A DNA stretch of 64,000 nt from an uncultured Fibrobacter sp. GTDB taxonomy: Bacteria > Fibrobacterota > Fibrobacteria > Fibrobacterales > Fibrobacteraceae. Positions 18,400 to 30,108 of the stretch are shown here, piece after piece. The translations under genes and the position numbers were made by a program. Each line of letters starts with the position of its first letter. Position 1 is the first letter of the stretch. Location of the stretch: assembly GCA_946415675.1 (NCBI GenBank), contig CAMKTL010000011.1, positions 89 through 64,088 of the forward strand, given 5' to 3'. The notes under the pieces are model-generated. The model made no database searches. It saw only the letters and a program-made list of their open reading frames with translations, and was not told the DNA's origin.

Positions 18400-20154
18400 C
18401 TATATTCCGGCACCATTCAAACGATAGGACTTCTCGCCGTCACGGATAATCACGCTGTTGCGTTCCCTCTGAACGAAGGGAGCGTTTTGCTTTTGCTCAG
18501 TACTCGACGGAAGAACGCGGGGAAGGCCTGTCCGTTCGCATTCTCCCATGAGAAAACTTCCTATATAGGCATCGCTTTCTAAATTGCCCACGTAAGGATT
18601 TTTATTTGCAAAATGGATGCAATCTTCAGGGTTCTTTTCACTGCAAACTTTTAATTCAACATCCAAACGGACTCCAGACCAGTTCGAAAAACAGCCCACA
18701 TCCGCCTCGATAGAAAGCTCGTTGTTTCCGTCGAACGTCATCACCGTATCCGCACCCTTGATTTCAATTTTACGGCTATATACCTTCATAAAATCGACAT
18801 GCTCAAGCGGTTTATTGATATTGAGTGCAGCGATTGTATCTAGCGGTCCGATATTAGTCATTCCGTGAACATATAACGACACCTTCATCTTGCGCGTCAA
18901 GTTGCCAAAGCCCACGTTCTGGATGCGCAATTTCGCACGTAAAATTCCATTGCCGCTCACCGTATCGCTCATCCACGATTCACGCAGCACAAAGCGGTAA
19001 CCCAAATGATCGTTGATATACTTGAATCCCGAAAGCGAATCGACACGCGCCGGGTCGTAGTCGAAATCCTTCTGCTTGAAGAGAGTTTTTTTCCAGCTGT
19101 CAATCAGGTTGTTGTTCCACTGGACATTCAAATAGCTTGTATGCGTGCGGAAGCCCTCGTAAGAGAGAAACTCCGGCGTATTGATGACCTCGTAACCGCC
19201 TGCCGTCGTGAGCGCCTCGCCACCGTAGGGCGTGTTGATGCCGTACTTCTCGAGCCAGGCCACGCCTTCTTCGCGGCAGATGGATGTAGCACAGTCCGCA
19301 CCCCACGTGCCGTAATCGTATTGCGTTCCCAAGTAGCCGTCATTGAACATTCCCACACGGTACATGGTATCGCCCTTCGCCTTCGCAATCTCCGCAAACT
19401 TCTCGCCGTCAATGTGGAAGTCAACGCCCCAGTTGTCAAAGCCCAGCACCTTCGCGGAGTAGTTTCCTGTGCGGGTCAGAATCTTCAATTCCGGCGGAGT
19501 GTTACGGAGCATCAAGTTCGTCGCCTCGGCAACGCGGTCGTAAGTGATATTCGTGTCAGAATGCATCTCGCCGTAGGCGCCGTGCATGCCCATCTCGAGC
19601 GCAACAATTACATCCGTATTCTTCGAGAGCACCGGCGCCAACTGCTTCACGTGCTTCAACACCCACTCGTGGGCCGGAGTCACGTTGCTGCGCCCGTTGT
19701 ACCACGGGTCGTAACAGATGCGCACAATCGCGTGCCCACCAAAGCTGCGAATGTTGTCAAAGGTCTGTTGCAAAACATTCAGGGCGTCTTCGGTCAGGTC
19801 CTGGCTCACGCCGCGCACCGTATCGCGTTTCCCTCCCGTCGTGTCAATCGAGAGCCATGCGTTGCTGCTGAATTCCGAAATCTCCGCCCGCAAGTGCAAC
19901 AACTTGCCATACGGTTTTTCAATCGCCTTGCCGCCCGAGGGTTTTAAATGCAACACTTGCGGCGTATAGAACCCGCGGTCGAAATTGTCAAGCGTCGCCA
20001 TCGCGTCAGTCGTGTCGATATCCTGCTTCACGAGACCAGCCGCAAAGAGCGGGGCCTGAAAAAAAGCCACCAAAACAAATATAAGGGAGAGCTTAGCAAA
20101 AGCGCTCAAACACAATAGGCGAAAACCAGAAAAACTCATACTTGTAATATACAT
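18400..20154 (-). CDS. DUF4874/DUF4832-like putative glycoside hydrolase-fold protein
   Basis: NFDRGFY, AIVRICY, GMHGAYGEMH, GMFNDGYL, YGGE, HTSYLN, INDHLGYRFVL, NVGFGN. The exact start is uncertain. Confidence 0.7.
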   Translation of the reverse strand: MYITSMSFSGFRLLCLSAFAKLSLIFVLVAFFQAPLFAAGLVKQDIDTTDAMATLDNFDRGFYTPQVLHLKPSGGKAIEKPYGKLLHLRAEISEFSSNAWLSIDTTGGKRDTVRGVSQDLTEDALNVLQQTFDNIRSFGGHAIVRICYDPWYNGRSNVTPAHEWVLKHVKQLAPVLSKNTDVIVALEMGMHGAYGEMHSDTNITYDRVAEATNLMLRNTPPELKILTRTGNYSAKVLGFDNWGVDFHIDGEKFAEIAKAKGDTMYRVGMFNDGYLGTQYDYGTWGADCATSICREEGVAWLEKYGINTPYGGEALTTAGGYEVINTPEFLSYEGFRTHTSYLNVQWNNNLIDSWKKTLFKQKDFDYDPARVDSLSGFKYINDHLGYRFVLRESWMSDTVSGNGILRAKLRIQNVGFGNLTRKMKVSLYVHGMTNIGPLDTIAALNINKPLEHVDFMKVYSRKIEIKGADTVMTFDGNNELSIEADVGCFSNWSGVRLDVELKVCSEKNPEDCIHFANKNPYVGNLESDAYIGSFLMGECERTGLPRVLPSSTEQKQNAPFVQRERNSVIIRDGEKSYRLNGAGI

Positions 20155-20180
20155 AGTTTTGAAAAGGGAAGAAGAAAGAA

Positions 20181-20206
20181 AAAGCCTTCCCTTACGGAAA
20201 GGCTTT
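20181..20206 (-). terminator. Terminator of the esterase gene
   Basis: AAAGCC-TTCC...GGAA-AGGCTTT hairpin followed on the minus strand by a pyrimidine run. Confidence 0.65.
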
Positions 20207-20232
20207 GTTTTGGGGTGTGAAAAAAACTCAAA

Positions 20233-21705
20233 TTAGAACTGTGTAATGAATTCCCAACCGATGTCGGATGCCCACAGTTTGCCGTTTTCACGCATATCCC
20301 ACTGGTGGCCGCCATTGAAGGTGCACCACTTCACAGGGAAGCGCGGATCGACCGTCTTGTAGTCATAGCACACATGGCCACCGCCACCAGAGAATTCCGT
20401 TGCCTTTTCGCTAGTGCAGTCCGTATGGCCTTCAGGACCGTTGTTCCTCAAAATCCTGTCGCGGGCGCTACGTCCCATGCTCGGCGGACACGTGCCATCG
20501 CTCAGGCCCACAGTTCCCATCCAAGCGATAGGCTTGCCGGAATTCTTCGGGATGTAGATGACCTGGTCAGCAGTCGCGAATACCACGACACCGCGGAGAC
20601 GATGCTGGAATGTCTGAGCAAGCGAGTTCGAGTACATGGCGCCAAAGCTAAAGCCGGAGGAGAACACGCGCGACGTATCGACGCAGAGGTTCTCGTTCAA
20701 GTAAGTGAGGATTTCGTCAAAGAAGAGGTGGTCCTTGTTGTCTCCGCAGCGCCATGGCATCTGGTCCGTGTAACCATGCGGGGCCACAAAAATCGTATTC
20801 TTTTTATCCTTGTCACGATAGCCGTAATAATGTTCATTCTTTGCGACGTTCTGTGCGGAACCGCCCATGCAATGCATGCCGAACACCAAACGGTAAGGCT
20901 TGTTCTTGTCGTAATTTTCAGGGAGATCAAGATAGACTTCGTGCTCGATTCCACCACCCTTGAACTTGAAGTAATTCTTGAGCGTGTTGTCCTTGCCGCA
21001 GCCCTTACTCGGCGTCGGCTCGTTCTTGAGCGGATAGCCAAACGCATAAGTCTGTTCCGTCGCAATTTTCGTGAGCTTCACATCGACAGTCGTATCGAGC
21101 GTGCCCAGCGGAACGGTGAGCGTATCATAGCCATCCGCAACAAAGCGGAGAGCTTCACCCTTCTCGGCTTCCTTCATGAGGGCGTTTCCATTTGCCCGCG
21201 AACCGATGGAACTGCTGAAGCCTCTGTCTGTCGTGAACTTGAAGTTCTGCTTGGCATTGCCTACAGAAACTTGAGCAAAATACGTGCCACGAGCTTCGAT
21301 GCCCTTGCTCAAATCATACGTCCCCGATCCCTGCAAAAGCTTTTTGAAGACCTGATTCCCGAGAGAGTTGTAAATTTTCACCTGCACAGGCGAGGTGCTG
21401 CTCTGGGAATAGGACAGAATACCGTTGTTGATGCTGATGTACCCAACAGTATTCCTGAAAGCAGGATGAATAGCGACACCCGGCGAATCCGCAGGAGGTG
21501 TAGTTATTTCATCTTCGTGAATTGTGAATTTGCCCTGGCGATCCGTCGTGGCGTTCTTGCCTTCCTTGAGAAGGCTCACCGAGACTCCCCTAAGGGCCTT
21601 GCCCTGGTCGTCAGAAACGGTTCCTGTGATGGTGTAAGCCGATACTGATCCGCAGAATGCCAGAAGACACGCCGCGCTAAGCAGTTTTGGTGTTTTGGTA
21701 ATCAT
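20233..21705 (-). CDS. Secreted alpha/beta-hydrolase (feruloyl/acetylxylan esterase or PHB depolymerase-like) with N-terminal accessory domains
   Basis: LVFGMHCMGGS, FVAPHG, CVDTSRVFSSGFSFG (GxSxG), FNGGH; signal peptide; ATG 21705 after GGAG. Confidence 0.8.
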   Translation of the reverse strand: MITKTPKLLSAACLLAFCGSVSAYTITGTVSDDQGKALRGVSVSLLKEGKNATTDRQGKFTIHEDEITTPPADSPGVAIHPAFRNTVGYISINNGILSYSQSSTSPVQVKIYNSLGNQVFKKLLQGSGTYDLSKGIEARGTYFAQVSVGNAKQNFKFTTDRGFSSSIGSRANGNALMKEAEKGEALRFVADGYDTLTVPLGTLDTTVDVKLTKIATEQTYAFGYPLKNEPTPSKGCGKDNTLKNYFKFKGGGIEHEVYLDLPENYDKNKPYRLVFGMHCMGGSAQNVAKNEHYYGYRDKDKKNTIFVAPHGYTDQMPWRCGDNKDHLFFDEILTYLNENLCVDTSRVFSSGFSFGAMYSNSLAQTFQHRLRGVVVFATADQVIYIPKNSGKPIAWMGTVGLSDGTCPPSMGRSARDRILRNNGPEGHTDCTSEKATEFSGGGGHVCYDYKTVDPRFPVKWCTFNGGHQWDMRENGKLWASDIGWEFITQF

Positions 21706-21801
21706 TCGCACTCCTTTTTACCAAACACCAACCAACCAACTCAATATAAAGTAATTTACGTGCAAACGTGACCAAAATCACATCCCTAGGACTCACGTTC
21801 A

Positions 21802-21816: not shown

Positions 21817-21957
21817 TAAAAAGATTTTTACATTTGATTCAAAGCACAAAAAAAGATAACGGAGCATGATTTAATCCACAAAAAAAGTGACCCGCCGGCG
21901 AAGCCGGCGGTTCTTCATATACGGGCGTAGCCCTACAATACTAGCGTCTAAAGTTTT

Positions 21958-23730
21958 TTACTTCACAACGGATGCAGTGAATCCCTTGTAAATCGCCTGC
22001 AACGCCCCAGCAAGGTAAGCAAGCGGAGCATTCCAGTTGATGGCCACTTCATTTGTCGCATAGCTGCAGCGGTTGTCTATATAAGCTAATGCGGGCTTGT
22101 CAGCAGAGGCGTAATTCGGGCACTTCCAGAGTTCCTTGCCGTCGAGGTTGATGTCCTGCTTGCCCAAATGCGGGCCGCCTACGAGCATGCCCGGCACCGG
22201 ATCATCGACAAAGTCCGATTCGCTTACGCGGTGGTGCGGATTGCGCGGGCTCCTGTAGCCAAAGCCAGTGACGTAGGTGATTTCCATCGGGTTCTTGCCC
22301 AAGAGGTAGTCAAGGCACTGCTGTGCACCATCCAGATAGCTCTTGTCGCCCGTGACAAAATACGCATGCATCAAAACGATTCCGTTGTTCGCCATGGCAC
22401 TGTTGCTGCCCCAGTTCCAGCTGGACGGGAATGCGGGGAGCCTGTAGGCGCTCGTATCGCCAACGGTGCGGAGTTCATTGGCAACTTTAAGCAAAGCCTT
22501 GCGCGCATCACCGCCGAGTTTCGCGCCGAATTCCGCAGAATCAAGCGCCACATGATAAATGGCGAGCATGTTCACATCACCCCACCAGGCTCCATCGGCA
22601 CGGAACGTATATTGTTTCAAGTCCTTGAGGTAATCCGACTTTTTCGTCGCGCGATAAAGTTCAGTCGCAGCAAAGGCAAACTCGTCCTTGCCGTTTTCTT
22701 CACCATAAGCGTAGTTGCCCGTTTCCACGTCTGACGGTTGCTTGTACAAAGCCTTCGGATGCCGCTTCGCCCAATAATAAGCGACTTCAGCAGCCTTGAG
22801 CATACGATTTGCAAATTCCGAATCAAACTTCGCATAAATGCAAGACGCCTGGGCCATCACCGCCGCGAAATCCAGCGTCGCCGTCAAGCTCTTTTCAATG
22901 GCATAACGCAGTGCCCCGTCAATTTCGGGCATCGTGCTGGAACCGAACTTGAGCGACGTGAGTTTATGATAGACGGCGCCGTCCTTGTCCTGCATCGAAA
23001 GCATCCAATCGAGATTCCAGCGGATTTCTTCAAGCAATTCCGGCATCTTCGGGAACTCGCGCGGGATATTCCACTGGAGCGTATCCATATATACCGGAAA
23101 ATGCTCATAGAGTTCCAACAACGTAAAAACGGTAATGCCCGAGTTCACAATGTACTTGCCATAGTCACCTGCATCGTACCAGCCACGCTGAGACTTGATG
23201 TACTTTGCATCGGCCTTCTTGGGCGCCGGTTTCCCGTTCGCCTTAGCCACCGTAGTCGCCGTCGGAAGGTCTGTCCCATAGACAATCACCTTGTCGTCCA
23301 TGTGCCCTGCCGCGCGTGCCCACTTGCCTGCATAGCGCGTATCGAGCGCCATTCCCGCACGCTGGTAATAGAACCACTTGAGCGCGGCTTTCGTCAAATC
23401 CTCATAAACAACCTCGCCCACAACAATCGGATTCCCGATGTAGCCGTCACGGAACAGGCGATACGTGCCCGGCTTCTTGATAGACGAGATGTCGTACGTC
23501 TGGACTTCCTCGCCACTGTATTCCCAATCATAGACCATCGGGGCTTCGAGCGCAAGAACCGTCTTGCCGCTCATGTCGCGGACTTCAAGCGGATTGGCGT
23601 CATTGCCGGGAATGACGACAATCTTTTCGGATTCAGGAGTAAAACCTAGCTGATTCACCAAGGGTATAGCAAAAGACGGCACCGCAAGGGCGAGCGCAGC
23701 AAATAATTGTTTCCGCATACAAAACCTCAT
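21958..23730 (-). CDS. GH9 endoglucanase with N-terminal Ig-like domain
   Basis: GWYDAGDYGKY, WNLDWMLSMQ, RNPHHR, YATNEVAINWNA; catalytic Asp and Glu residues intact. The start could be 23718. Confidence 0.95.
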   Translation of the reverse strand: MRFCMRKQLFAALALAVPSFAIPLVNQLGFTPESEKIVVIPGNDANPLEVRDMSGKTVLALEAPMVYDWEYSGEEVQTYDISSIKKPGTYRLFRDGYIGNPIVVGEVVYEDLTKAALKWFYYQRAGMALDTRYAGKWARAAGHMDDKVIVYGTDLPTATTVAKANGKPAPKKADAKYIKSQRGWYDAGDYGKYIVNSGITVFTLLELYEHFPVYMDTLQWNIPREFPKMPELLEEIRWNLDWMLSMQDKDGAVYHKLTSLKFGSSTMPEIDGALRYAIEKSLTATLDFAAVMAQASCIYAKFDSEFANRMLKAAEVAYYWAKRHPKALYKQPSDVETGNYAYGEENGKDEFAFAATELYRATKKSDYLKDLKQYTFRADGAWWGDVNMLAIYHVALDSAEFGAKLGGDARKALLKVANELRTVGDTSAYRLPAFPSSWNWGSNSAMANNGIVLMHAYFVTGDKSYLDGAQQCLDYLLGKNPMEITYVTGFGYRSPRNPHHRVSESDFVDDPVPGMLVGGPHLGKQDINLDGKELWKCPNYASADKPALAYIDNRCSYATNEVAINWNAPLAYLAGALQAIYKGFTASVVK

Positions 23731-23923: not shown

Positions 23924-24979
23924 TTACTTCTTGGCGGCCTTGTAGTTGACGCCCGGACGGAGTTCGAGACCGACAGTCACGAGGAGGGAGACAATCGGTT
24001 CGTAGTGGTCCTGGGAGAGGTCATACACGGCAACACCGGCCATGCCTTCGCTCTTCACGTGCTGGGCGACCGCCTTCACAGACGGAATGCCCATGAACAC
24101 GATAGATTCGGTTTCACTCACAGCCACTTCAGACTTGGAAGCTTCATCGAAAGTCACCGTGTAGTCCGGCGTATCGAAACGGTTCATGAGTTCAGCGTAC
24201 GGGAGGTAACCTTCGTTACCGCTTCCAACGCCCTGATGGCTCGTGCCGAGGCCCTTGGCACCCGCGAAGGACTTACCGTAGAGGAACACCACCGGAGCAA
24301 GGAGGTCCTTGTTCACGCCGGCGGCAGCAACAGCGTCAAGCGTTTCCTGCACGGAGTTTGCACTCTGGTTCGGAACGAGGCTGCTTTCGCTTTCGTTCAT
24401 GAGGTCAGCCATGAACACATCGACATAAGCGGCGCGGTTCAAAGCTTCGGCCTTGTAAGCATCCATACCTGCAGCCGGATAAATCACAGCAGTCACCGTC
24501 AAGCCGGAAAGGCCATCGACCAAGGCATTCAACATCTTGGCGTAATCTTCGGCGTCATCCGTTGTGAGGTTCTGCCAGTCGAGTTCAACACCATCGCCAC
24601 CATTCGTAGAAATCCAGTCCTTCACGTTCGAGACAAACGTGGAGAGCGTTTCGTCAGAAGAAGCGATTGCCTTGAGGTTCGATTCGGCTTCCATGCCACC
24701 CACCGACACAATAAGCTTGACACCATTCTCCTTGGACATGGTCACAAGGTTCTTGAAGTTGTCCGCATCGTATTCATCGGCAAAGGCAACCGTACCTTCA
24801 GCAGTCGGAGCGATAGACATATAGTGAATATCAGTCACGAGATTGTAGCGGATATCCTTGGCATAGAACTGGGAATACTGACTCCAATAGGGATAGAAGC
24901 CTATCACTTTGTCGGCGGCGGCCTGAGCAGACACCGCAGCACCCATAGCGAGAGCAAGTGCAATAACTTTAAAGTTCAT
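23924..24979 (-). CDS. GH18 chitinase-like protein, probably non-catalytic
   Basis: KVIGFYPYW, LIVSVGG, DGVELDWQ (canonical DxxDxDxE), GMAGVAVYDLSQD; signal peptide; AGAGG RBS. Confidence 0.85.
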   Translation of the reverse strand: MNFKVIALALAMGAAVSAQAAADKVIGFYPYWSQYSQFYAKDIRYNLVTDIHYMSIAPTAEGTVAFADEYDADNFKNLVTMSKENGVKLIVSVGGMEAESNLKAIASSDETLSTFVSNVKDWISTNGGDGVELDWQNLTTDDAEDYAKMLNALVDGLSGLTVTAVIYPAAGMDAYKAEALNRAAYVDVFMADLMNESESSLVPNQSANSVQETLDAVAAAGVNKDLLAPVVFLYGKSFAGAKGLGTSHQGVGSGNEGYLPYAELMNRFDTPDYTVTFDEASKSEVAVSETESIVFMGIPSVKAVAQHVKSEGMAGVAVYDLSQDHYEPIVSLLVTVGLELRPGVNYKAAKK

Positions 24980-24993
24980 CTGAATACCTCTTC

Positions 24994-25683
24994 CTATTGG
25001 TTAACTAGATGGAGAATGCCCGTTGCCGGATCCATACAATAGTGTCCCGGATCTGCCACAAATTTTTTAGGGTCATCTACAGTTTTTCCCTGCAATTTAG
25101 TAATTGAAGAATCTACTGGAATCCCTTGGGCATTAAGAACTGAAACCGTCACCTGATCGCGAGTTATATTGGCTAATTCAGTAGCATCGCAGAAACGATA
25201 AGCCCAACCATGAGACTCACCGTAAACAATGTATTGCTGAGAAATGGCAACTTCGTCAACCGGGACCTGGGTCAATGCGGTAAAATCATCGGCGACACCG
25301 ACAAAGTTGAATTCCGTCAAATCCTTCAGGATGTTCGCATCGGTAGCAGCAGCAGCGCAAGCATCAACCGGATAGCCGCCCATAAAAGGATCGCTGCAAA
25401 TTTGGACGAGAGTTGGAGATGCGGCAAAGGTTGCATCATCCGCAGCCTTCAATGCGGCGTAATCTCCACCGGCATTTGTCACGGAATCCTTGACAAGAGA
25501 GTTTCGCATTTCCACGTAATCTTTAATCTGCAACTTGCGCAGAATCGGGTGCAACTGCATATAAGTCTGAGCAGTGAAACCTGCCGGAAAGGAATCAGAG
25601 TAAGGCTCGCTCACTTCCAACGAGGAACATGCACCCAAAACACCTGCCAAGAGAATCATTGTGTACTGGTAAAGTTTTTTCAT
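24994..25683 (-). CDS. Lipoprotein of unknown function
   Basis: MKKLYQYTMILLAGVLGAC lipobox; AGAGG RBS 7 nt upstream. Confidence 0.8.
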   Translation of the reverse strand: MKKLYQYTMILLAGVLGACSSLEVSEPYSDSFPAGFTAQTYMQLHPILRKLQIKDYVEMRNSLVKDSVTNAGGDYAALKAADDATFAASPTLVQICSDPFMGGYPVDACAAAATDANILKDLTEFNFVGVADDFTALTQVPVDEVAISQQYIVYGESHGWAYRFCDATELANITRDQVTVSVLNAQGIPVDSSITKLQGKTVDDPKKFVADPGHYCMDPATGILHLVNQ

Positions 25684-25695
25684 TTTCAGCACCTC

Positions 25696-27897
25696 TTAGA
25701 AATTAACCGTAACATCAGCAGTGACGATATTCTTGCTAATGGAAAGTTTGTTTGCACCGGCGTCAACAGGCGTACCGCTCGCGTCCGTAATCATATAAGC
25801 GTAATCGAGATCGTTCGTGAGCATACCGTACTGAACTGTCAAGTAAGAAATCGGAGCAAGCTTCACACGGACACCGCCCATAACCAGGCGCTCGGAGGCC
25901 TTGGTCACGCTAACAGCCACATTCATTTCACCGAAAGAGCCGCCAACACCGAAACCGTTTCCAAATTCCTTTTCATACTGCTGGAAACCGACAAGAAGAG
26001 CAACCGGGCCCCAGACATCAGCTGTCACGCCCGCAACGATGCGGTTCGCAGAACGCTTGAGGTAAGCAGATTCTTCGGCATGAGAGTAAGAACCCTGAAT
26101 GAGAATCTGGCGGTCAAGACCGGCAAGAGCGCCAGCATCGACACCAAGACCCACGGCATATTCCGTGAACTTGTTCTCTGCGACTTGCGGAATACCTGTC
26201 GCAGGATCCACAGACAAAGAGTTCGACTGGGTCAAAATGTTGACGCGAGCGTTGAACATCACCTTGTCAGCCCAGTTGACATCGGCCTTCGCCGTAATAC
26301 CCTTGCGGTCCGGAGTAGCAAGGCCGAACGGCAATGCAAGACCTACAGACGGATCCAACTCCATCAGCGGATCAAGTTCCAGGCGCTTTGAAACAGTACC
26401 CGTGTAGCCGTTGCGGTAGAAATGGCCGTTCTTGTAGTTGTTATCCAAACGGGAGTAGAGATATCCGCTTTCGCCATTTTTACGGCCGAAAATATCTCCT
26501 TCATTGGAAAGAGTGTTCGTGTTAGCCGACGTCATCAAGTTCGTCGCCTGCAATGTCGTAGAATTATAGACATTGAAATAGAGGTTTTCGAGACTGGATG
26601 CACCGAAGGTCGAGAAGATAAGGTTGTCCTGAGGATTCTCGTACATGGCGTTCGCATTGAGGATAACCGAACGTCCCTGATAAACCGGAGAAGATGCCAT
26701 TTCAGACCAGAACTTCTCATCCGTCTTGAGATAACCGGCATCGACCTTGAAGTCGATATCATTGACATCGCCTTTCACAAAGAGGTTCGCATAGAAGCTG
26801 TTGCCGCTTTCATCCGCGAAGTCTTCGTTGGCAACTACCAAAGGATAGGATACAGCGCTCTTGATATAGACAATCCTGTCGCCATTTATGTTTTTCTCAA
26901 GAATCTTGTAATCGGTCTTGAATCCTTTTTTCAGGTAATCGCGGTCAACCTTCCACTTGGACATGGCAAATTCACCATTCAAGCCGAACGAAACCGGAAG
27001 ATCCGGAAGAGTCTTCTTGGAATCGAAGCTCAAGTCCGCGGAGAACACCCTGTTGTTATCGTAGTAGATCGTATCGGTATCGGCAATCTGCTTAGTACGA
27101 CGGGTATATTTGCGGTCAAACAAATTGACAAAGTTCAAACCGAGATGTGCCCCGTAAGATTCGATACCAGCACGGGCACCGAGCATGTAACGGTCGGAGA
27201 AGTCGAAGTCGAAGAAGACCTGGTCAACTTTCTTTCCCGTATTGCGGAGACGTGCACCGGTAAGCTGTGCGGTAATGTTATCGACCGCGCCAAGGCTTCC
27301 GCTCTGGTAAGCGATATTGAGGCCTTGCAGCAAGCGACGGCTTGTCGTATCGAGATTGCGCTTTTCAAGAGCTTCGCGACGCTTCTCCGAGAAGATTTCC
27401 GGTTCCTGGAGAATTTCGGTCTGCGGAGCGAAAACAGTGAGTGGGGTATAACCGACACGCATGTATCCCAAATTGAAATCGACATGCTTGTTGAGGATTG
27501 TTCCGTCGTAGCTGAACCAATGACCGATAATCGGGTTGTTGTTCTCGTCATAGGCGCTCTGCCAATCCTTGTGCAAGCGCAGCTGGACGTCAATCATCGT
27601 CTCGGAACTCGGACGGGCGGTCAAGCGCAGGTTCACATCCGTGAAAGCCTGGTTTTCCTGAGTCGGAGATTCCTTCGCATACTGGTCGGAAGAGCTAAAG
27701 GAAGCAAGAACGCCTGCCTTCGCCGTTCCGTTAATCTTGAGCCCAAGCACTGCCGCATTGAGAGAATCCAACTTTTCCAGCAAGGATCTCTGTTGCGTAA
27801 CAACCTCAGTCTGGTTTTCAGCGGCAAACGCAGTCGCAGCCGAAAGAGCAACAGCGGAGGTCAATAAAATTTTGCGCATGTTCATATTGAAATTCAT
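25696..27897 (-). CDS. Outer-membrane beta-barrel protein (paralog 3)
   Basis: Signal peptide, alternating amphipathic strands, C-terminal ADVTVNF; GGAGG RBS. Confidence 0.8.
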   Translation of the reverse strand: MNFNMNMRKILLTSAVALSAATAFAAENQTEVVTQQRSLLEKLDSLNAAVLGLKINGTAKAGVLASFSSSDQYAKESPTQENQAFTDVNLRLTARPSSETMIDVQLRLHKDWQSAYDENNNPIIGHWFSYDGTILNKHVDFNLGYMRVGYTPLTVFAPQTEILQEPEIFSEKRREALEKRNLDTTSRRLLQGLNIAYQSGSLGAVDNITAQLTGARLRNTGKKVDQVFFDFDFSDRYMLGARAGIESYGAHLGLNFVNLFDRKYTRRTKQIADTDTIYYDNNRVFSADLSFDSKKTLPDLPVSFGLNGEFAMSKWKVDRDYLKKGFKTDYKILEKNINGDRIVYIKSAVSYPLVVANEDFADESGNSFYANLFVKGDVNDIDFKVDAGYLKTDEKFWSEMASSPVYQGRSVILNANAMYENPQDNLIFSTFGASSLENLYFNVYNSTTLQATNLMTSANTNTLSNEGDIFGRKNGESGYLYSRLDNNYKNGHFYRNGYTGTVSKRLELDPLMELDPSVGLALPFGLATPDRKGITAKADVNWADKVMFNARVNILTQSNSLSVDPATGIPQVAENKFTEYAVGLGVDAGALAGLDRQILIQGSYSHAEESAYLKRSANRIVAGVTADVWGPVALLVGFQQYEKEFGNGFGVGGSFGEMNVAVSVTKASERLVMGGVRVKLAPISYLTVQYGMLTNDLDYAYMITDASGTPVDAGANKLSISKNIVTADVTVNF

Positions 27898-27912: not shown

Positions 27913-30093
27913 TTAAAATTCCACATTAATGGAAGCTTCAAAAATAGACTGACTAAACTTATGCTGATAAGTACCCGCAACGCCGTCGCCCTTCTTCTCT
28001 GCGCTGAAGTAATCAGGCAGGTTACGAGCAGAACCGGCAATAGCCGCAGTATTGTAGTCGTTTGTCACGTTGACCATGCCGTAATTGATGGCAAGCCATG
28101 CGTTGTCGCCAACCACATAGTCAAAGCCCACCATCCACTGCATCTGCTTGCTCTTCAGGAGAGGAACATCAAGACCGACCATCGGGTTGATATTGCCAAC
28201 CCCATAGTCCGTATTGGCCATCTGGAAACCGGCCGTAAAGCCGATTCGCGACAAGAACTGAGCAGAGAATCCTGCATTGATGAAGTCGCTCTTGAGGGTT
28301 CCCGAAACACCGCCAACCATGTCGGTCTTGCTTTCGGAATGCTTGAAGGAACCGGATACTTCCATGGCCTTGTTGAGGCCCGCCATCTTGGCGATATCGA
28401 ACTTGGCGCCACCGCCAAATTCCATGAAGGAAACCTTGTCGATTTCAGGAATTTCGCTATTCACCTGATTGAATATGCTTACAAGAGCCTGGGCTTCGAT
28501 CTTTTCCTCCCAATCACCCTTGACTATAGCGCGGACACCCATGCGGTTCGGAGTCGCGAGGCCATACGGCAAGGTGAGCTGGACAGCCGGATCCAACATC
28601 ATGTTGATGAGGGCGAGCTGTTCGGCGGAATAGACATTGGAACCCCAAGAATTCTTGTTGTACGGAGCGATATTGTAGCTTTCGCCCTGACCGGCCTTGA
28701 AGGCGTCGTCGTTCGTACCCAGGGAGCGAGCCACCGGAGAGAACTTCGGAGAGTAATTATAGAGAGCGTCGAACGTCGAGTAGAGCGGAGAGTTCACGCC
28801 ATACTTGACCGTGTTACCGTCCTTGTCCGAGTTCAAAATACGCTGGGCGAAGAAGCTCGGGGACTGTGCGAGGTTGTTGAACCACTTTTCATCGTTGCGG
28901 ATGAAATCGAGAGCAAGGCCTGCGTTCCAGGAATTATCGACCTTGTAACCGACATTCAACGTAGCGAGCAAGGCAGAACCGTTTACGCTTTCTTCAGATT
29001 CAACGACGGCATTCGTCGCAGGATCGACAGCAAAAGACTTCACCTTGTTTATCGACATCGCATATTCGAGCACGAGATCAAGACTGAGGTTCTTGTTCTG
29101 CATGAGCCCAGCGATATCGGCACCGGCGCGGGCGCTCAACACGAACGTGTTCTGCAGACCCACATCCGGGTTGATTTCCTGAAGGACGTAGCTGCTGAGT
29201 TCAGGATCGTCCGGGTTGAAATCATCCGGCTTGGCGTTACGCGGCAGCGGATGGCGATAAGTATAGGACTTCGAGTTTTCATTATCGAAAATCAACATCG
29301 GAGTCACGCCAACATAGACGTTCTTCTGAACCGGAAGGAGTTCTAAGTTACCACCGACGACCCACTTGTCCGTATTGGAAGCAAGCGAGGTTGCAACACC
29401 CGGAATGGAATCGCCAGGGATAATGTTGCCTTCGGCACCGGTAAAGTCGAGCACCGACACGCGGTTCACGCGAGCCAAGAACGCTTCGGCACGGAGTTCG
29501 CCAATCATCGGGTCAATTTCTTGACGGAACTGAAGGTTAAAACCCTGAAGGTTGCGCTTGTTGCCTTCGATAAGCTGTTCCTTCTGGGCCATGTGGCGCT
29601 TGCGGGCGAAAATCGTCGGTTCGTACATGATGTCGATACCGGGATTGTAAATAGAGAGCGGAGAAATCGCAGAGCGGAAGTCACCGGCAATCCAGTAGAA
29701 ACTCTTGCCGACATTGCCCTCTACATTGAGCCATTTGGCTTCGAGCGTCTTTGCCGCAGAAGCGAAGTATTCCTGCATACCGCCACCGAGACGCATCGTC
29801 ACATTCGCACGGACAAATTCATACGGACGGAAACCGAAGTTCAAGTCAGCGGAGACAAACTCGTTGCGTTCCACGTCCGGCATGTGGTTGAGACCACTTG
29901 GATCGTTGTCCGTATCGAAACTGGAGCGCTGAGCCACGGCACGGATGCTACCAGTAATTTCAACACCGCGCTTGGCATTCGCGCTATCCGCCTTGGCCTG
30001 CAAGGCCTTTTGGTTATCCGCAACTGCAGATGCCGATGCGGCAACCGAAGCAGTGAGAAGGGCGATTAAAATTCTTTTCATTTTCATATTCAT
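27913..30093 (-). CDS. Outer-membrane beta-barrel protein (paralog 2)
   Basis: Signal peptide, C-terminal FEASINVEF; shares LPYGLATPNR with paralog 3 (LPFGLATPDR); GGGAGG RBS. Confidence 0.8.
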   Translation of the reverse strand: MNMKMKRILIALLTASVAASASAVADNQKALQAKADSANAKRGVEITGSIRAVAQRSSFDTDNDPSGLNHMPDVERNEFVSADLNFGFRPYEFVRANVTMRLGGGMQEYFASAAKTLEAKWLNVEGNVGKSFYWIAGDFRSAISPLSIYNPGIDIMYEPTIFARKRHMAQKEQLIEGNKRNLQGFNLQFRQEIDPMIGELRAEAFLARVNRVSVLDFTGAEGNIIPGDSIPGVATSLASNTDKWVVGGNLELLPVQKNVYVGVTPMLIFDNENSKSYTYRHPLPRNAKPDDFNPDDPELSSYVLQEINPDVGLQNTFVLSARAGADIAGLMQNKNLSLDLVLEYAMSINKVKSFAVDPATNAVVESEESVNGSALLATLNVGYKVDNSWNAGLALDFIRNDEKWFNNLAQSPSFFAQRILNSDKDGNTVKYGVNSPLYSTFDALYNYSPKFSPVARSLGTNDDAFKAGQGESYNIAPYNKNSWGSNVYSAEQLALINMMLDPAVQLTLPYGLATPNRMGVRAIVKGDWEEKIEAQALVSIFNQVNSEIPEIDKVSFMEFGGGAKFDIAKMAGLNKAMEVSGSFKHSESKTDMVGGVSGTLKSDFINAGFSAQFLSRIGFTAGFQMANTDYGVGNINPMVGLDVPLLKSKQMQWMVGFDYVVGDNAWLAINYGMVNVTNDYNTAAIAGSARNLPDYFSAEKKGDGVAGTYQHKFSQSIFEASINVEF

Positions 30094-30108
30094 CTTTAGC
30101 ATCCTCCC

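What the first reader, a model, noticed from the sequence alone, without database searches (positions are those of the whole stretch)
24572..24595. GH18 catalytic motif degenerated: DGVELDWQ instead of DxxDxDxE
The general acid Glu is Gln (CAG at 24574-24572) and the middle Asp is Glu. The MxYD motif reads FMADL and the -1 subsite Trp region reads VAVYDL. Such changes define chitinase-like lectins in eukaryotes. In a cellulolytic organism this is probably a repurposed beta-1,4-glycan-binding protein that automated annotation would mislabel as a chitinase.
Basis: partly seen in the sequence, partly recalled or inferred. Interest (0 to 1): 0.68.

Follow-up and report, generated by a model that had tools for sequence, protein, structure and literature searches.

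The report
Dead chitinase fold in cellulose machinery
A secreted Fibrobacter protein that databases call a chitinase has lost the chitinase catalytic residues in every relative examined, yet it is strongly conserved and co-expressed with a cellulose-binding protein and three outer-membrane proteins, so it is most likely a non-enzymatic part of the bacterium's cellulose-handling apparatus.

Summary
ORF 23924-24979 (-) encodes a 351-aa secreted, full-length GH18 protein. Its DxxDxDxE motif reads DGVELDWQ (24595-24572), its MxYD reads FMAD, and the beta-8 Trp is Tyr.

Gln is invariant in 120/120 Fibrobacter orthologues. In deeper relatives the same position is I, L, S, T, D or E. dN/dS is 0.04-0.15, so the gene is functional and the catalytic acid is dispensable.

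By synteny it is the orthologue of F. succinogenes S85 Fisuc_1530/FSU_2012. That protein is annotated "chitinase (EC 3.2.1.14)" but listed as cellulose-binding.

It is the last gene of a six-gene operon: CBM30 protein, three ~730-aa outer-membrane-type proteins, a lipoprotein, then the GH18-like protein. The operon is conserved in every locus long enough to show it, is constitutively highly expressed in S85, and is transcribed in rumen metatranscriptomes.

Distant high-GC bacteria carry the same module. Some have an intact DGIDLDWE GH18 beside GH20 and other GH18 genes. Others have a dead GH18 fused to CBM30.

The best reading is a chitin-type envelope module adapted to cellulose, in which the GH18 subunit became non-catalytic. 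Direct glucan binding by this protein is not proven.

The parts
23924..24979 (-). GH18-like (pseudo-chitinase) CDS, 351 aa, stop codon included. By synteny the orthologue of F. succinogenes S85 Fisuc_1530/FSU_2012.
   Evidence: ORF. Pfam PF00704 full length, E 1e-30. AF2 model with pLDDT 86 and pTM 0.86 shows a (beta/alpha)8 barrel plus an alpha+beta insertion domain. Foldseek TM 0.75-0.80 to chitinases and YKL-40-type proteins. dN/dS 0.04-0.15.
24572..24595 (-). Degenerate DxxDxDxE motif: D129-G-V-E132-L-D134-W-Q136.
   Evidence: Sequence. Aligned to DGIDLDWE of 5gzu and 6kst. Q invariant in 120/120 and E132 near-invariant. The same column is I/L/S/T/D/E in deeper family members.
24920..24979 (-). 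Sec signal peptide, aa 1-20 (…VSAQA|AADK). No lipobox and no T9SS C-terminal domain.
   Evidence: Read from the sequence. The S85 orthologue is listed with signal peptide residues 1-20 (PMC6851124 Table 1). Pfam found no Por_Secre_tail.
24401..24415 (-). Former MxYD motif, F189-M-A191-D192-L. The Tyr that positions the substrate acetamido group is Ala here (Ala/Ser/Pro in orthologues).
   Evidence: Alignment to 5gzu. Orthologue variants. Tyr is 100% conserved in the intact-motif relatives and 0% in the Fibrobacter-type family.
24017..24034 (-). Beta-8 strand V316-A-V-Y319-D-L. The -1 subsite Trp is replaced by Tyr.
   Evidence: Trp is 100% in intact-motif relatives and 0% in the family.
24089..24301 (-). 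Alpha+beta insertion domain with the beta-7 region (aa 227-297). This is the most conserved part of the protein (GxGSGNxG loop, Y273..S300).
   Evidence: Secondary structure of the model. Conservation maps.
23927..23959 (-). Conserved C-terminal tail LRPxxxYKxKK(K), aa 341-351. Disordered in the model.
   Evidence: R341 and P342 invariant and the basic end conserved even in 39-46%-identical relatives. pLDDT 44.
24994..25692 (-). Lipoprotein (lipobox L-G-A-C-S-S), 232 aa, 14 nt upstream of the GH18-like gene. It is the fastest-evolving member of the operon.
   Evidence: ORF. No Pfam or NCBIfam match. The lipobox is conserved in the 26 loci where a match was found, at 32-97% identity. S85 FSU_2011 is named 'Putative lipoprotein' and was detected in the envelope proteome.
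25696..27897 (-). Outer-membrane-type protein, 733 aa, with a signal peptide and C-terminal …VTVNF.
   Evidence: Paralogue of the 729-aa protein (25% identity, E 1e-35). Terminal Phe conserved in all loci. The AF2 model is low-confidence (pLDDT 56) but consists of long beta-hairpins, and its Foldseek hits are only outer-membrane barrels at TM 0.25-0.33.
27913..30102 (-). Outer-membrane-type protein, 729 aa, C-terminal …SINVEF.
   Evidence: (no Pfam match).
30109..32373 (-). Outer-membrane-type protein, 754 aa, C-terminal …TKAWF. The best-conserved of the three.
   Evidence: Homologues at 27-31% identity (E 1e-70 to 1e-110) in the high-GC loci L040-L043.
32383..33126 (-). [quoted passage not shown]
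   Evidence: Pfam CBM30, E 7.7e-18. 81-99% identical across Fibrobacter loci. PDB hits to CBM30 structures 1wmx and 2c24.
33442..34611 (+). Divergently transcribed GH5 cellulase (S85 Fisuc_1523/FSU_2005).
   Evidence: Pfam Cellulase, E 2e-33. Present in 31 of 33 loci; the other two are cut there. S85 activity is listed as confirmed (PMC6851124 Table 1).
21958..23730 (-). GH9 endoglucanase with a CelD_N Ig-like domain, 193 nt downstream (S85 Fisuc_1531). Present only in the F. succinogenes-like clade and expressed separately at a lower level.
   Evidence: Pfam. Synteny. S85 rlog 8.53 against about 11.6 for the operon. Metatranscriptome contig depth 11.7 against 95-137.
21892..21910 (-). Terminator-like hairpin of 8 G-C pairs followed by a T run, after the GH9 gene.
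   Evidence: No comparable site lies between the GH18-like gene and GH9.

Best explanation
The gene encodes a secreted GH18-fold protein that keeps the (beta/alpha)8 barrel and the insertion domain. It has lost the substrate-assisted catalytic apparatus: acid Glu->Gln, middle Asp->Glu, MxYD Tyr->Ala, -1 subsite Trp->Tyr, and further -1 subsite residues. It is therefore not a chitinase.

It is the terminal product of a constitutively expressed six-gene operon: CBM30 cellulose-binding protein, three large outer-membrane beta-barrel-type proteins, a lipoprotein, then the GH18-like protein. I propose that it works in the cell envelope as a non-catalytic subunit of that apparatus. Most likely it holds a beta-1,4-glucan chain or cellodextrin in the remodelled former active-site groove. 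It may also, or instead, dock the CBM30 protein to the outer-membrane proteins. Neighbouring GH5, GH9 and GH8 cellulases would do the cutting.

The module appears to derive from a GlcNAc-glycan (chitin-type) version in which the GH18 is still catalytic.

Shown: loss of the motifs, purifying selection, operon membership, co-expression, and the intact-motif relatives in chitin-type contexts. Inferred: absence of activity, the ligand, the binding site, physical complex formation, and the direction of evolution.
For: 1. Motif loss and its conservation.
2. The acid position is free to vary between clades (Q, I, L, S, T, D, E) while the operon is kept.
3. Of 56 positions conserved in both intact-motif relatives and generic GH18s, 17 are replaced in the family. 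These include D->E132, E->Q136, M->F189, Y->A191, W->Y319 and F->S55. Trp32, SxGG, D134, W135, D192 and Y234-G235 are kept.
4. E->Q and E->L are the substitutions crystallographers use to obtain substrate complexes of GH18 enzymes (1ll7, 3wkz, 5y2c, 5wvg and 4mnm among the Foldseek hits).
5. dN/dS is 0.04-0.15.
6. Confident GH18 fold, similar also to YKL-40, BRP39 and SPC-40.
7. The operon is conserved in 33/33 Fibrobacter-type loci with 3-15 nt gaps between genes.
8. S85 Fisuc_1525-1530 are all in expression cluster 1, with rlog 10.1-11.9 and CV 1.5-2%.
9. All six S85 proteins were found in the envelope proteome.
10. Rumen metatranscriptome contigs cover the operon and span gene junctions.
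11. The S85 orthologue is listed as cellulose-binding and enriched in the extracellular/outer-membrane fractions.
12. GH18-like+CBM30 fusion proteins exist (P0161, P0171, P0422).
13. The same module occurs with an intact DGIDLDWE GH18 beside GH20 and other GH18 genes.
Against: The S85 cellulose-binding claim is second-hand (Suen 2011 cites Mitsumori 1996; Burnet 2015 cites Jun 2007), and neither primary paper could be read. It may reflect co-purification with the CBM30 protein.

Raut et al. measured whole-cell chitotrioside-cleaving activity in S85 and attributed it to this protein. A second GH18 (FSU_3030) exists, and I could not inspect it.

Glu132 is invariant, so an alternative catalytic arrangement cannot be excluded from sequence.

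The protein has only a Sec signal, so whether it is on the surface or in the periplasm is unknown. The outer-membrane nature of the three large proteins rests on signal peptides, a terminal Phe, a low-confidence model and PSORT or UniProt labels. Deep nodes of the NJ tree have only 57-65% bootstrap support.
Confidence: 0.65

Rival explanations
1. It is a structural or adaptor subunit that binds no glycan itself. The GH18 fold is kept only as a protein-protein interaction scaffold, docking the CBM30 protein and/or the lipoprotein to the outer-membrane proteins. The reported cellulose binding would then be indirect.
For: The most conserved surfaces are the insertion domain and the C-terminal LRP…KKK tail, not the classical subsites. 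Fusion of the GH18-like domain to CBM30 in other lineages suggests the two act as one unit. Residues of the -1 and +1 subsites are heavily replaced.
Against: Trp32 (the distal-subsite Trp), Y53, D134-W135, D192 and Y234 at the groove remain invariant or nearly so. ExDWQN is among the most conserved stretches within Fibrobacter. That is hard to explain if the groove were unused.
Confidence: 0.2
2. It is still an enzyme, using a different catalytic arrangement (for example the invariant Glu132 with another carboxylate) on a non-acetylated beta-glucan or another substrate.
For: Glu132 replaces the middle Asp in all members of the Fibrobacterota-type family and is invariant. D192, E99, E284 and E291 are also invariant or nearly so. 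The family is under strong constraint.
Against: The GH18 mechanism needs the substrate's acetamido group and the acid at position 136. That position takes Q, I, L, S and T between clades that keep the same operon. D134 is also lost in two members. No GH18 is known to me to hydrolyse through the middle-Asp position (own knowledge). Cellulases are encoded alongside.
Confidence: 0.1
3. It is what the annotation says: a chitinase or endo-beta-N-acetylglucosaminidase, possibly acting in peptidoglycan turnover (the reading of Raut et al. 2019).
For: Full-length GH18 Pfam match. Whole-cell activity on pNP-chitotrioside fell in parallel with FSU_2012 abundance in S85 (PMC6851124).
Against: The catalytic Glu, the MxYD Tyr and the -1 Trp are all missing, and the acid position is not conserved across the family. 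The operon and its neighbours are cellulose-related. The S85 correlation is a 1.3-fold change in whole cells that also carry a second GH18.
Confidence: 0.04
4. It is a proteinaceous glycosidase inhibitor of the XIP-I type, that is, a GH18 fold used to block foreign or own glycoside hydrolases.
For: Precedent only: plant XIP-I is a catalytically dead GH18 that inhibits xylanases (own knowledge). This protein is secreted and found in the medium.
Against: XIP-I, concanavalin B and narbonin are hevamine-like and lack the alpha+beta insertion domain, which is present and most conserved here. Strict operon linkage to CBM30 and the outer-membrane proteins is not explained.
Confidence: 0.01

Closest known systems
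F. succinogenes S85 Fisuc_1530 / FSU_2012 (UniProt A7UG63, 'Chitinase', 'CBP-9')
   Same: The gene order matches: GH5 <-> CBM30 (Fisuc_1525), three hypothetical or 'membrane' proteins (1526-1528), a lipoprotein (1529), GH18 (1530), GH9 (1531). The signal peptide is also residues 1-20. The protein is listed as cellulose-binding, found in the outer-membrane and extracellular fractions, and is in the top expression decile and constitutive.
   Different: The window comes from a different Fibrobacter lineage (99% identical to a yak-rumen MAG). I could not obtain the S85 sequence, so orthology rests on synteny and the family search. None of the papers I could search mentions the missing catalytic residues or treats genes 1525-1530 as a unit.
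Eukaryotic chitinase-like proteins (chi-lectins): YKL-40/CHI3L1, Ym1/Chil3, BRP39, SPC-40, insect IDGFs
   Same: GH18 barrel plus insertion domain, loss of the catalytic Glu (to Leu or Gln) and often of an Asp, maintained by selection as secreted binding proteins. Structural similarity TM 0.75-0.80. The sequence search also hits them.
   Different: Only 17-21% identity, so the loss is independent. This protein is bacterial and has no close relation to that clade. Here the -1 Trp and the MxYD Tyr are also lost, whereas most CLPs keep them and still bind chitin oligomers (own knowledge). The genomic context is cellulose, and the gene sits in an operon with outer-membrane proteins.
Intact-motif GH18s attached to the same module in high-GC bacteria (P0412-P0421; loci L042, L043)
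   Same: They share the subfamily signatures GYYPNW.HYS, FYGKSF and VFNGIPS. They have the same neighbours: a CBM30 protein and homologues of all three large proteins (27-34% identity, E down to 1e-110).
   Different: They keep DGIDLDWE, MxYDYMG and the beta-8 Trp. They lie beside GH20, further GH18/EndoS-like genes, a PA14 protein and an Opp-type ABC transporter, and are transcribed divergently from the module rather than as its last gene.
Plant non-catalytic GH18 proteins (concanavalin B, narbonin, XIP-I)
   Same: GH18 barrel with lost or unused catalytic machinery. Concanavalin B also has Glu->Gln (own knowledge).
   Different: They are class-III hevamine-like and lack the insertion domain (own knowledge). 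The model here has that domain, and it is the most conserved part.
Surface glycan-binding proteins of Bacteroidota Sus-like polysaccharide utilisation loci (functional analogue only)
   Same: A non-catalytic glycan-binding protein encoded with outer-membrane proteins, a lipoprotein and glycoside hydrolases for one polysaccharide.
   Different: None of the operon proteins examined has a SusC/TonB-dependent-receptor or SusD signature. The three large proteins match no Pfam family; PDB sequence searches of the 754- and 733-aa proteins and an NCBIfam scan of the 733-aa protein also found nothing.

Membership tests
Glycoside hydrolase family 18 (sequence/fold family) | Significant full-length match to the GH18 profile | tested here: met
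   PF00704, 108 bits against a 29.6 cut-off, profile 1-317 of 317.
Glycoside hydrolase family 18 (sequence/fold family) | (beta/alpha)8 barrel, here with the alpha+beta insertion domain of subfamily-A type enzymes | tested here: met
   AF2 model with pLDDT 86. Foldseek TM 0.75-0.80 to insect, fungal and bacterial chitinases.
Catalytically competent GH18 chitinase / endo-beta-N-acetylglucosaminidase | DxxDxDxE with the terminal Glu as general acid | tested here: not met
   DGVELDWQ. Gln in 120/120 orthologues, and I/L/S/T/D/E in deeper relatives.
Catalytically competent GH18 chitinase / endo-beta-N-acetylglucosaminidase | MxYD Tyr and beta-8 Trp forming the -1 subsite that distorts GlcNAc and positions its acetamido group | tested here: not met
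   Tyr->Ala/Ser/Pro and Trp->Tyr/Phe. Both residues are 100% conserved in intact-motif relatives and 0% in this family.
Catalytically competent GH18 chitinase / endo-beta-N-acetylglucosaminidase | Measured hydrolysis of chitin or chito-oligosaccharides | not testable with these tools
   The only data are whole-cell S85 assays, which are not protein-specific (PMC6851124).
Chitinase-like proteins / GH18 pseudoenzymes (functional class) | GH18 fold retained, catalytic acid lost, gene kept under purifying selection | tested here: met
   (dN/dS 0.04-0.15).
Chitinase-like proteins / GH18 pseudoenzymes (functional class) | Demonstrated glycan (lectin) binding | not testable with these tools
   The S85 orthologue is listed as 'cellulose binding' (PMC3079729, PMC4668043). 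The primary papers are not held.
Chitinase-like proteins / GH18 pseudoenzymes (functional class) | Descent from the animal CLP clade | tested here: not met
   17-21% identity to CLPs. Its nearest relatives are bacterial module-associated GH18s.
Hevamine-like non-catalytic GH18 (XIP-I, concanavalin B, narbonin) | Barrel without an insertion domain | tested here: not met
   An insertion domain is present at aa 227-297 and is highly conserved.
Sus-like polysaccharide utilisation locus | SusC-type TonB-dependent transporter plus SusD-type lipoprotein | tested here: not met
   The three large proteins and the lipoprotein have no Pfam match, and the 733-aa protein and the lipoprotein have no NCBIfam match. 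Foldseek gives only generic outer-membrane barrel similarity, from a low-confidence model.
CBM30-3xOMP-GH18 module (defined here) | GH18 of the 'VFNGIPS / FYGKSF' subfamily adjacent to a CBM30 protein and three homologous 630-870-aa proteins ending in Phe | tested here: met
   Window. 33/33 Fibrobacter-type loci. Deeper Fibrobacterota-type loci. High-GC loci L040-L043.

The most novel reading that the evidence does not exclude
The CBM30 protein, the three large outer-membrane proteins, the lipoprotein and the dead GH18 together form a previously unrecognised envelope machine. It would capture beta-1,4-linked polysaccharide chains and pass them across the outer membrane. That would be the long-sought non-cellulosomal, cell-bound mechanism of cellulose degradation in Fibrobacter, derived by exaptation from a chitin-utilisation version that still carries an active GH18.
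Probability: 0.25. Interest if true: 0.9.

Novelty: new variant of a known kind. Interest (0 to 1): 0.6.

Why it matters
First, it corrects an annotation that has already misled published work. One study predicted chitin hydrolysis for all Fibrobacteres from GH18 counts (PMC4704652). Another explained changes in "chitinase" FSU_2012 by peptidoglycan turnover (PMC6851124).

Second, it is a clear bacterial example of a GH18 pseudoenzyme, a class best known from animals and plants. It comes with natural controls: intact-motif relatives in the same gene module, and independent inactivations.

Third, and more important, it draws attention to a conserved six-gene operon that is among the most highly and constitutively expressed in F. 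succinogenes S85. Five of its six products are annotated as hypothetical or membrane proteins. How Fibrobacter degrades crystalline cellulose without cellulosomes or processive cellulases is a long-standing open question. This operon is a concrete, testable candidate for part of the answer.

Tried and rejected
Primary papers. Jun et al. 2007 (PMC2045214, also tried by DOI) and Toyoda et al. 2009 (PMC2655453) are not held, so the cellulose-binding evidence stays second-hand. Suen 2011 cites Mitsumori 1996 (CBP1) for it, while Burnet 2015 cites Jun 2007.

Identifying the S85 sequence. The listing of cluster members returned only unnamed MAG proteins. Orthology therefore rests on synteny, locus-tag arithmetic and the matching signal-peptide length.

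Literature searches. Searches for Fisuc_1526-1528 and FSU_2008-2010 found nothing in main texts. Searches for any note of an inactive bacterial or Fibrobacter GH18 found nothing relevant. The PopA lipid-trapping OMP paper mentions other Fibrobacter proteins, not these.

Structure of the outer-membrane proteins. The permitted alignment (71-100% identity plus the window paralogue) gave pLDDT 56. From that model I claim only 'large beta-barrel-type OMP'. PDB sequence searches of the 754- and 733-aa proteins were empty.

Taxonomy of the high-GC loci L040-L043 could not be determined, because the hits carry no organism names.

Pseudogene or decay hypothesis: rejected on dN/dS and expression.

Long antisense ORFs opposite the operon (for example 24005..25042 +) were ignored as non-genes. 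They have no support, and the sense strand carries the conserved proteins.
Full report
OBSERVATION

The ORF 23924..24979 on the minus strand encodes a 351-aa protein. The reverse complement of 24595..24572 reads GAT GGT GTT GAA CTC GAC TGG CAG, which is D129-G-V-E132-L-D134-W-Q136.

The protein matches Pfam Glyco_hydro_18 over the whole profile (1-317 of 317, E 1e-30). HMMER alignments to solved chitinases put:
- DGVELDWQ on DGIDLDWE;
- FMAD on MTYD;
- VAVYDL on the beta-8 strand, where chitinases carry the -1 subsite Trp (5gzu, 6kst).

The N-terminus is a Sec signal peptide cleaved after AQA (aa 1-20). There is no lipobox and no type-IX secretion domain.

CONSERVATION

A search of 5.8 billion proteins returned at least 120 full-length orthologues, all from Fibrobacter or Fibrobacteraceae, at 50-95% identity. 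Among them:
- Gln is present in 120/120.
- Glu at the middle-Asp position is present in all but one.
- The third Asp and the Trp before Gln are invariant.
- The first Asp varies freely.
- The MxYD Tyr is Ala, Ser or Pro.
- The beta-8 Trp is Tyr or Phe.

The Gln codon is CAG in all 14 Fibrobacter-type loci inspected. dN/dS against the window is 0.04-0.15 wherever dS is unsaturated. The gene is under strong purifying selection and is not decaying.

A profile search of 1.84 billion cluster representatives found eight full-length family representatives above 377 bits. Scores then drop sharply to generic GH18s. In these deeper members the catalytic column reads Q, Q, I, L, S, T, D and E. The one member with E has lost the preceding Asp. 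Glu132 is invariant throughout. Selection therefore maintains the protein but not an acid at that position.

A systematic comparison covered 56 positions conserved both in the nearest intact-motif relatives and in generic GH18s.
- 17 are replaced in the family: D->E132, E->Q136, M->F189, Y->A191, W->Y319, F->S55, W->F277 and others.
- Retained: Trp32 of the beta-1 loop, SxGG, D134-W135, D192 and Y234-G235.

The centre of the cleft, which handles the N-acetyl group, has been remodelled. More distal groove residues survive.

STRUCTURE

An AlphaFold2 model built from 60 orthologues is confident (pLDDT 86, pTM 0.86). It shows the (beta/alpha)8 barrel with the alpha+beta insertion domain at aa 227-297.

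Foldseek finds insect, fungal and bacterial chitinases and the mammalian chitinase-like proteins YKL-40, BRP39 and SPC-40 at TM 0.75-0.80 and 17-21% identity. Several of the best matches are engineered E->Q or E->L mutants, which crystallographers use to trap substrate.

The most conserved parts of the family are:
- the insertion domain with a GxGSGNxG loop;
- the stretch ExDWQN;
- a C-terminal LRPxxxYKxKK(K) tail that is disordered in the model.

IDENTITY AND LITERATURE

The window is 99% identical at this gene to a yak-rumen Fibrobacter MAG. The gene order is:
- GH5 (33442-34611, +), transcribed divergently;
- then on the minus strand a CBM30 protein (32383-33126);
- three proteins of 754, 729 and 733 aa;
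- a 232-aa lipoprotein;
- the GH18-like gene;
- a GH9 (21958-23730).

This is the arrangement of F. succinogenes S85 Fisuc_1523 (GH5), 1525 (CBM30), 1526-1528, 1529, 1530 (GH18) and 1531 (GH9). Fisuc_1530 is also FSU_2012, UniProt A7UG63, named 'Chitinase (EC 3.2.1.14)'.

What the literature says about Fisuc_1530/FSU_2012:
- The genome paper lists it with predicted activity 'chitinase' and characterised activity 'cellulose binding' (PMC3079729).
- Burnet et al. report it as a previously identified outer-membrane carbohydrate-binding protein, six-fold enriched in the extracellular fraction (PMC4668043).
- Neumann et al. put it above the 90th expression percentile and find it constitutive (PMC6204037).

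I could not read the primary binding papers.

None of the papers I could search notes the missing catalytic residues. On the contrary:
- Abdul Rahman et al. infer chitin hydrolysis for all Fibrobacteres from GH18 counts (PMC4704652).
- Raut et al. interpret FSU_2012 as a chitinase linked to peptidoglycan turnover (PMC6851124).

OPERON

Gaps between the six genes from CBM30 to the GH18-like gene are 3-15 nt. The gap to GH9 is 193 nt, and the only strong terminator lies after GH9.

All 33 Fibrobacter-type loci fetched carry CBM30, the three large proteins and the GH18-like gene in this order. The divergent GH5 is present in 31 of them; the other two are cut at that end. The lipoprotein was matched by tblastn in 26 of the 33. 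GH9 follows only in the F. succinogenes-like clade.

The three large proteins all have signal peptides and end in an aromatic residue followed by Phe (…VTVNF, …INVEF, …KAWF), which is the usual outer-membrane beta-signal. The 733- and 729-aa proteins are paralogues. They have no Pfam match. An NCBIfam scan (733-aa protein only) and PDB sequence searches (754- and 733-aa proteins) also found nothing.

A low-confidence model of the 733-aa protein (pLDDT 56) consists of long beta-hairpins and hits only outer-membrane barrels at TM 0.25-0.33. I therefore call them outer-membrane-type proteins and no more.

Expression and protein evidence:
- In S85, Fisuc_1525-1530 have mean rlog expression of 11.35, 11.85, 11.65, 11.87, 10.13 and 11.65. 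All fall in the constitutive cluster 1 with CV of 1.5-2%.
- The GH9 (Fisuc_1531) is at 8.53 in another cluster (Table S2 of PMC6204037).
- All six proteins were detected in the S85 envelope proteome (supplement of PMC6851124).
- In sheep and cattle rumen metatranscriptomes the operon is covered at contig depths of 35-185, against about 12 for GH9 and for the upstream spacer. Contigs span the GH18-like/lipoprotein junction and the 733/729 junction. Contig depth is only a rough measure.

BEYOND FIBROBACTER

Deeper Fibrobacterota-type relatives whose acid position is L, I, S or T sit in the same operon. It is followed there by Por_Secre_tail proteins and by GH8 and GH5 cellulases.

Four loci from unidentified bacteria with 55-66% G+C carry clear homologues of the CBM30 protein (30-34% identity) and of all three large proteins (24-31% identity, E down to 1e-110) next to a GH18 of the same subfamily. 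Three situations occur.
(a) P0413, P0415 and their clade keep DGIDLDWE, MxYDYMG and the beta-8 Trp. Their loci contain GH20, further GH18/EndoS-like genes, a PA14 protein and an Opp-type ABC transporter. This is a GlcNAc-glycan context.
(b) P0160 reads DGIDLAWK.
(c) P0161, P0171 and P0422 read D(L/F)AWD and are single polypeptides that fuse the GH18-like domain to a CBM30 domain, followed by the three large proteins.

A neighbour-joining tree has 99% bootstrap support for the Fibrobacterota-type clade but only 57-65% for deeper nodes. It places the Fibrobacterota-type clade as sister to the clade that holds both the intact and the (b)/(c) forms. Catalytic loss therefore happened at least twice (tentative).

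INTERPRETATION

The GH18 protein is a fixed component of a CBM30 + three-OMP module. Where the surrounding genes are chitin-type, it looks catalytically competent. Where they are cellulases, it is catalytically dead but strongly conserved.

The simplest account is that Fibrobacterota adapted a chitin-type envelope module to cellulose. Cellulases took over bond cleavage, and the GH18 subunit was retained for a non-catalytic role.

Three things fit that:
- the retained distal groove residues;
- the conserved ExDWQN stretch;
- the reported cellulose binding of the S85 orthologue.

However, the strongest conservation lies on the insertion domain and the C-terminal tail, and the GH18-CBM30 fusions exist. 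Both points fit equally well a docking role in which cellulose binding comes from the CBM30 partner. I rate 'non-catalytic, module-bound subunit' at about 0.65, with direct glucan binding as the more likely sub-mechanism. The pure-adaptor rival is at about 0.2. A cryptic alternative enzymatic activity is at about 0.1, because Glu132 is invariant. True chitinase activity is at about 0.04.

NOVELTY

GH18 pseudoenzymes are a known kind in animals and plants, and the S85 orthologue was already listed as cellulose-binding. As far as I could search, four things are new:
- the recognition that its catalytic machinery is absent and that the acid position is free to vary;
- its fixed membership in a six-gene, highly expressed operon of otherwise uncharacterised envelope proteins;
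- the existence of the same module with an intact GH18 in chitin-type loci;
- the existence of dead GH18-CBM30 fusions elsewhere.

This makes the operon a concrete candidate for part of Fibrobacter's unresolved cell-bound mechanism of cellulose degradation. That last step is hypothesis, not result.

Noticed in passing
window 23927-23959 (-), aa 341-351: The GH18-like protein ends in a conserved, apparently disordered tail LRPxxxYKxKK(K). It is kept even in relatives only 39-46% identical. It may be a sorting, retention or docking signal, and it is much shorter than the known Fibrobacter basic terminal domain.
   Followed up: partly
P0161, P0171, P0422 (loci L041 and others): About 600-aa proteins from high-GC metagenomic bacteria fuse a dead GH18 domain (D(L/F)AWD) to a CBM30 domain. 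They are followed by homologues of the three large outer-membrane-type proteins.
   Followed up: partly
L042 8336-9448 and L043 10001-11149, with flanks: GH18s of the same subfamily with intact DGIDLDWE/MxYD/Trp sit divergently next to a ~350-aa unknown protein, CBM30 and three OMP homologues. They lie among GH20, EndoS-like GH18s, a PA14 protein and an Opp-type ABC transporter. This looks like an uncharacterised chitin or GlcNAc-glycan utilisation module.
   Followed up: partly
P0110 (L003/L033 10001-11188): One Fibrobacteraceae orthologue carries a 42-residue Pro/Ala/Glu-rich insertion directly after the DWQN motif, in the loop over the former active site.
   Followed up: no
P0151 (5937 aa, from the representative search): A giant protein with at least six tandem GH18 domains, each reading DGLDLAWQG (Asp->Ala and Glu->Gln). 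It is an array of catalytically dead GH18 repeats of unknown origin.
   Followed up: no
window 24994-25692 (-), and a joint 25215->25613 in run X1: The lipoprotein is by far the most variable operon member: 32-97% identity, length 206-389 aa, and undetectable by tblastn in several loci. One metatranscriptome contig skips 397 nt inside it, which suggests strain-level indel variation.
   Followed up: no
loci L017-L020, L022-L027, L030, L032 (OMP754 orthologues): In horse-faeces and some other Fibrobacter MAGs the first large protein appears about 80-110 aa longer at the N-terminus, with a different signal peptide (MRKLP…). This is either a real extension or an artefact of my start-codon choice.
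   Followed up: no
window 18400-21711 (-): Downstream of GH9 lie a 492-aa protein (CarboxypepD_reg-like N-terminus, weak esterase and Por_Secre_tail hits) and a 584-aa DUF4874/DUF4832 protein. Both are partly syntenic in close relatives.
   Followed up: no
window 34635-35408 (-): An LpxA-like acyltransferase (Hexapep + Acetyltransf_11) flanks the GH5/CBM30 locus in the window and in nearly all related loci, including distant Fibrobacterota. The module therefore sits next to lipid A biosynthesis genes.
   Followed up: no
literature: PMC3079729 Table 3 versus PMC4668043: The 'cellulose binding' entry for FSU_2012 is referenced to Mitsumori 1996 (CBP1) in Suen 2011, and Raut 2019 gives the same reference. 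Burnet 2015 attributes it to Jun 2007. The citation trail is inconsistent and should be checked against the primary papers.
   Followed up: partly
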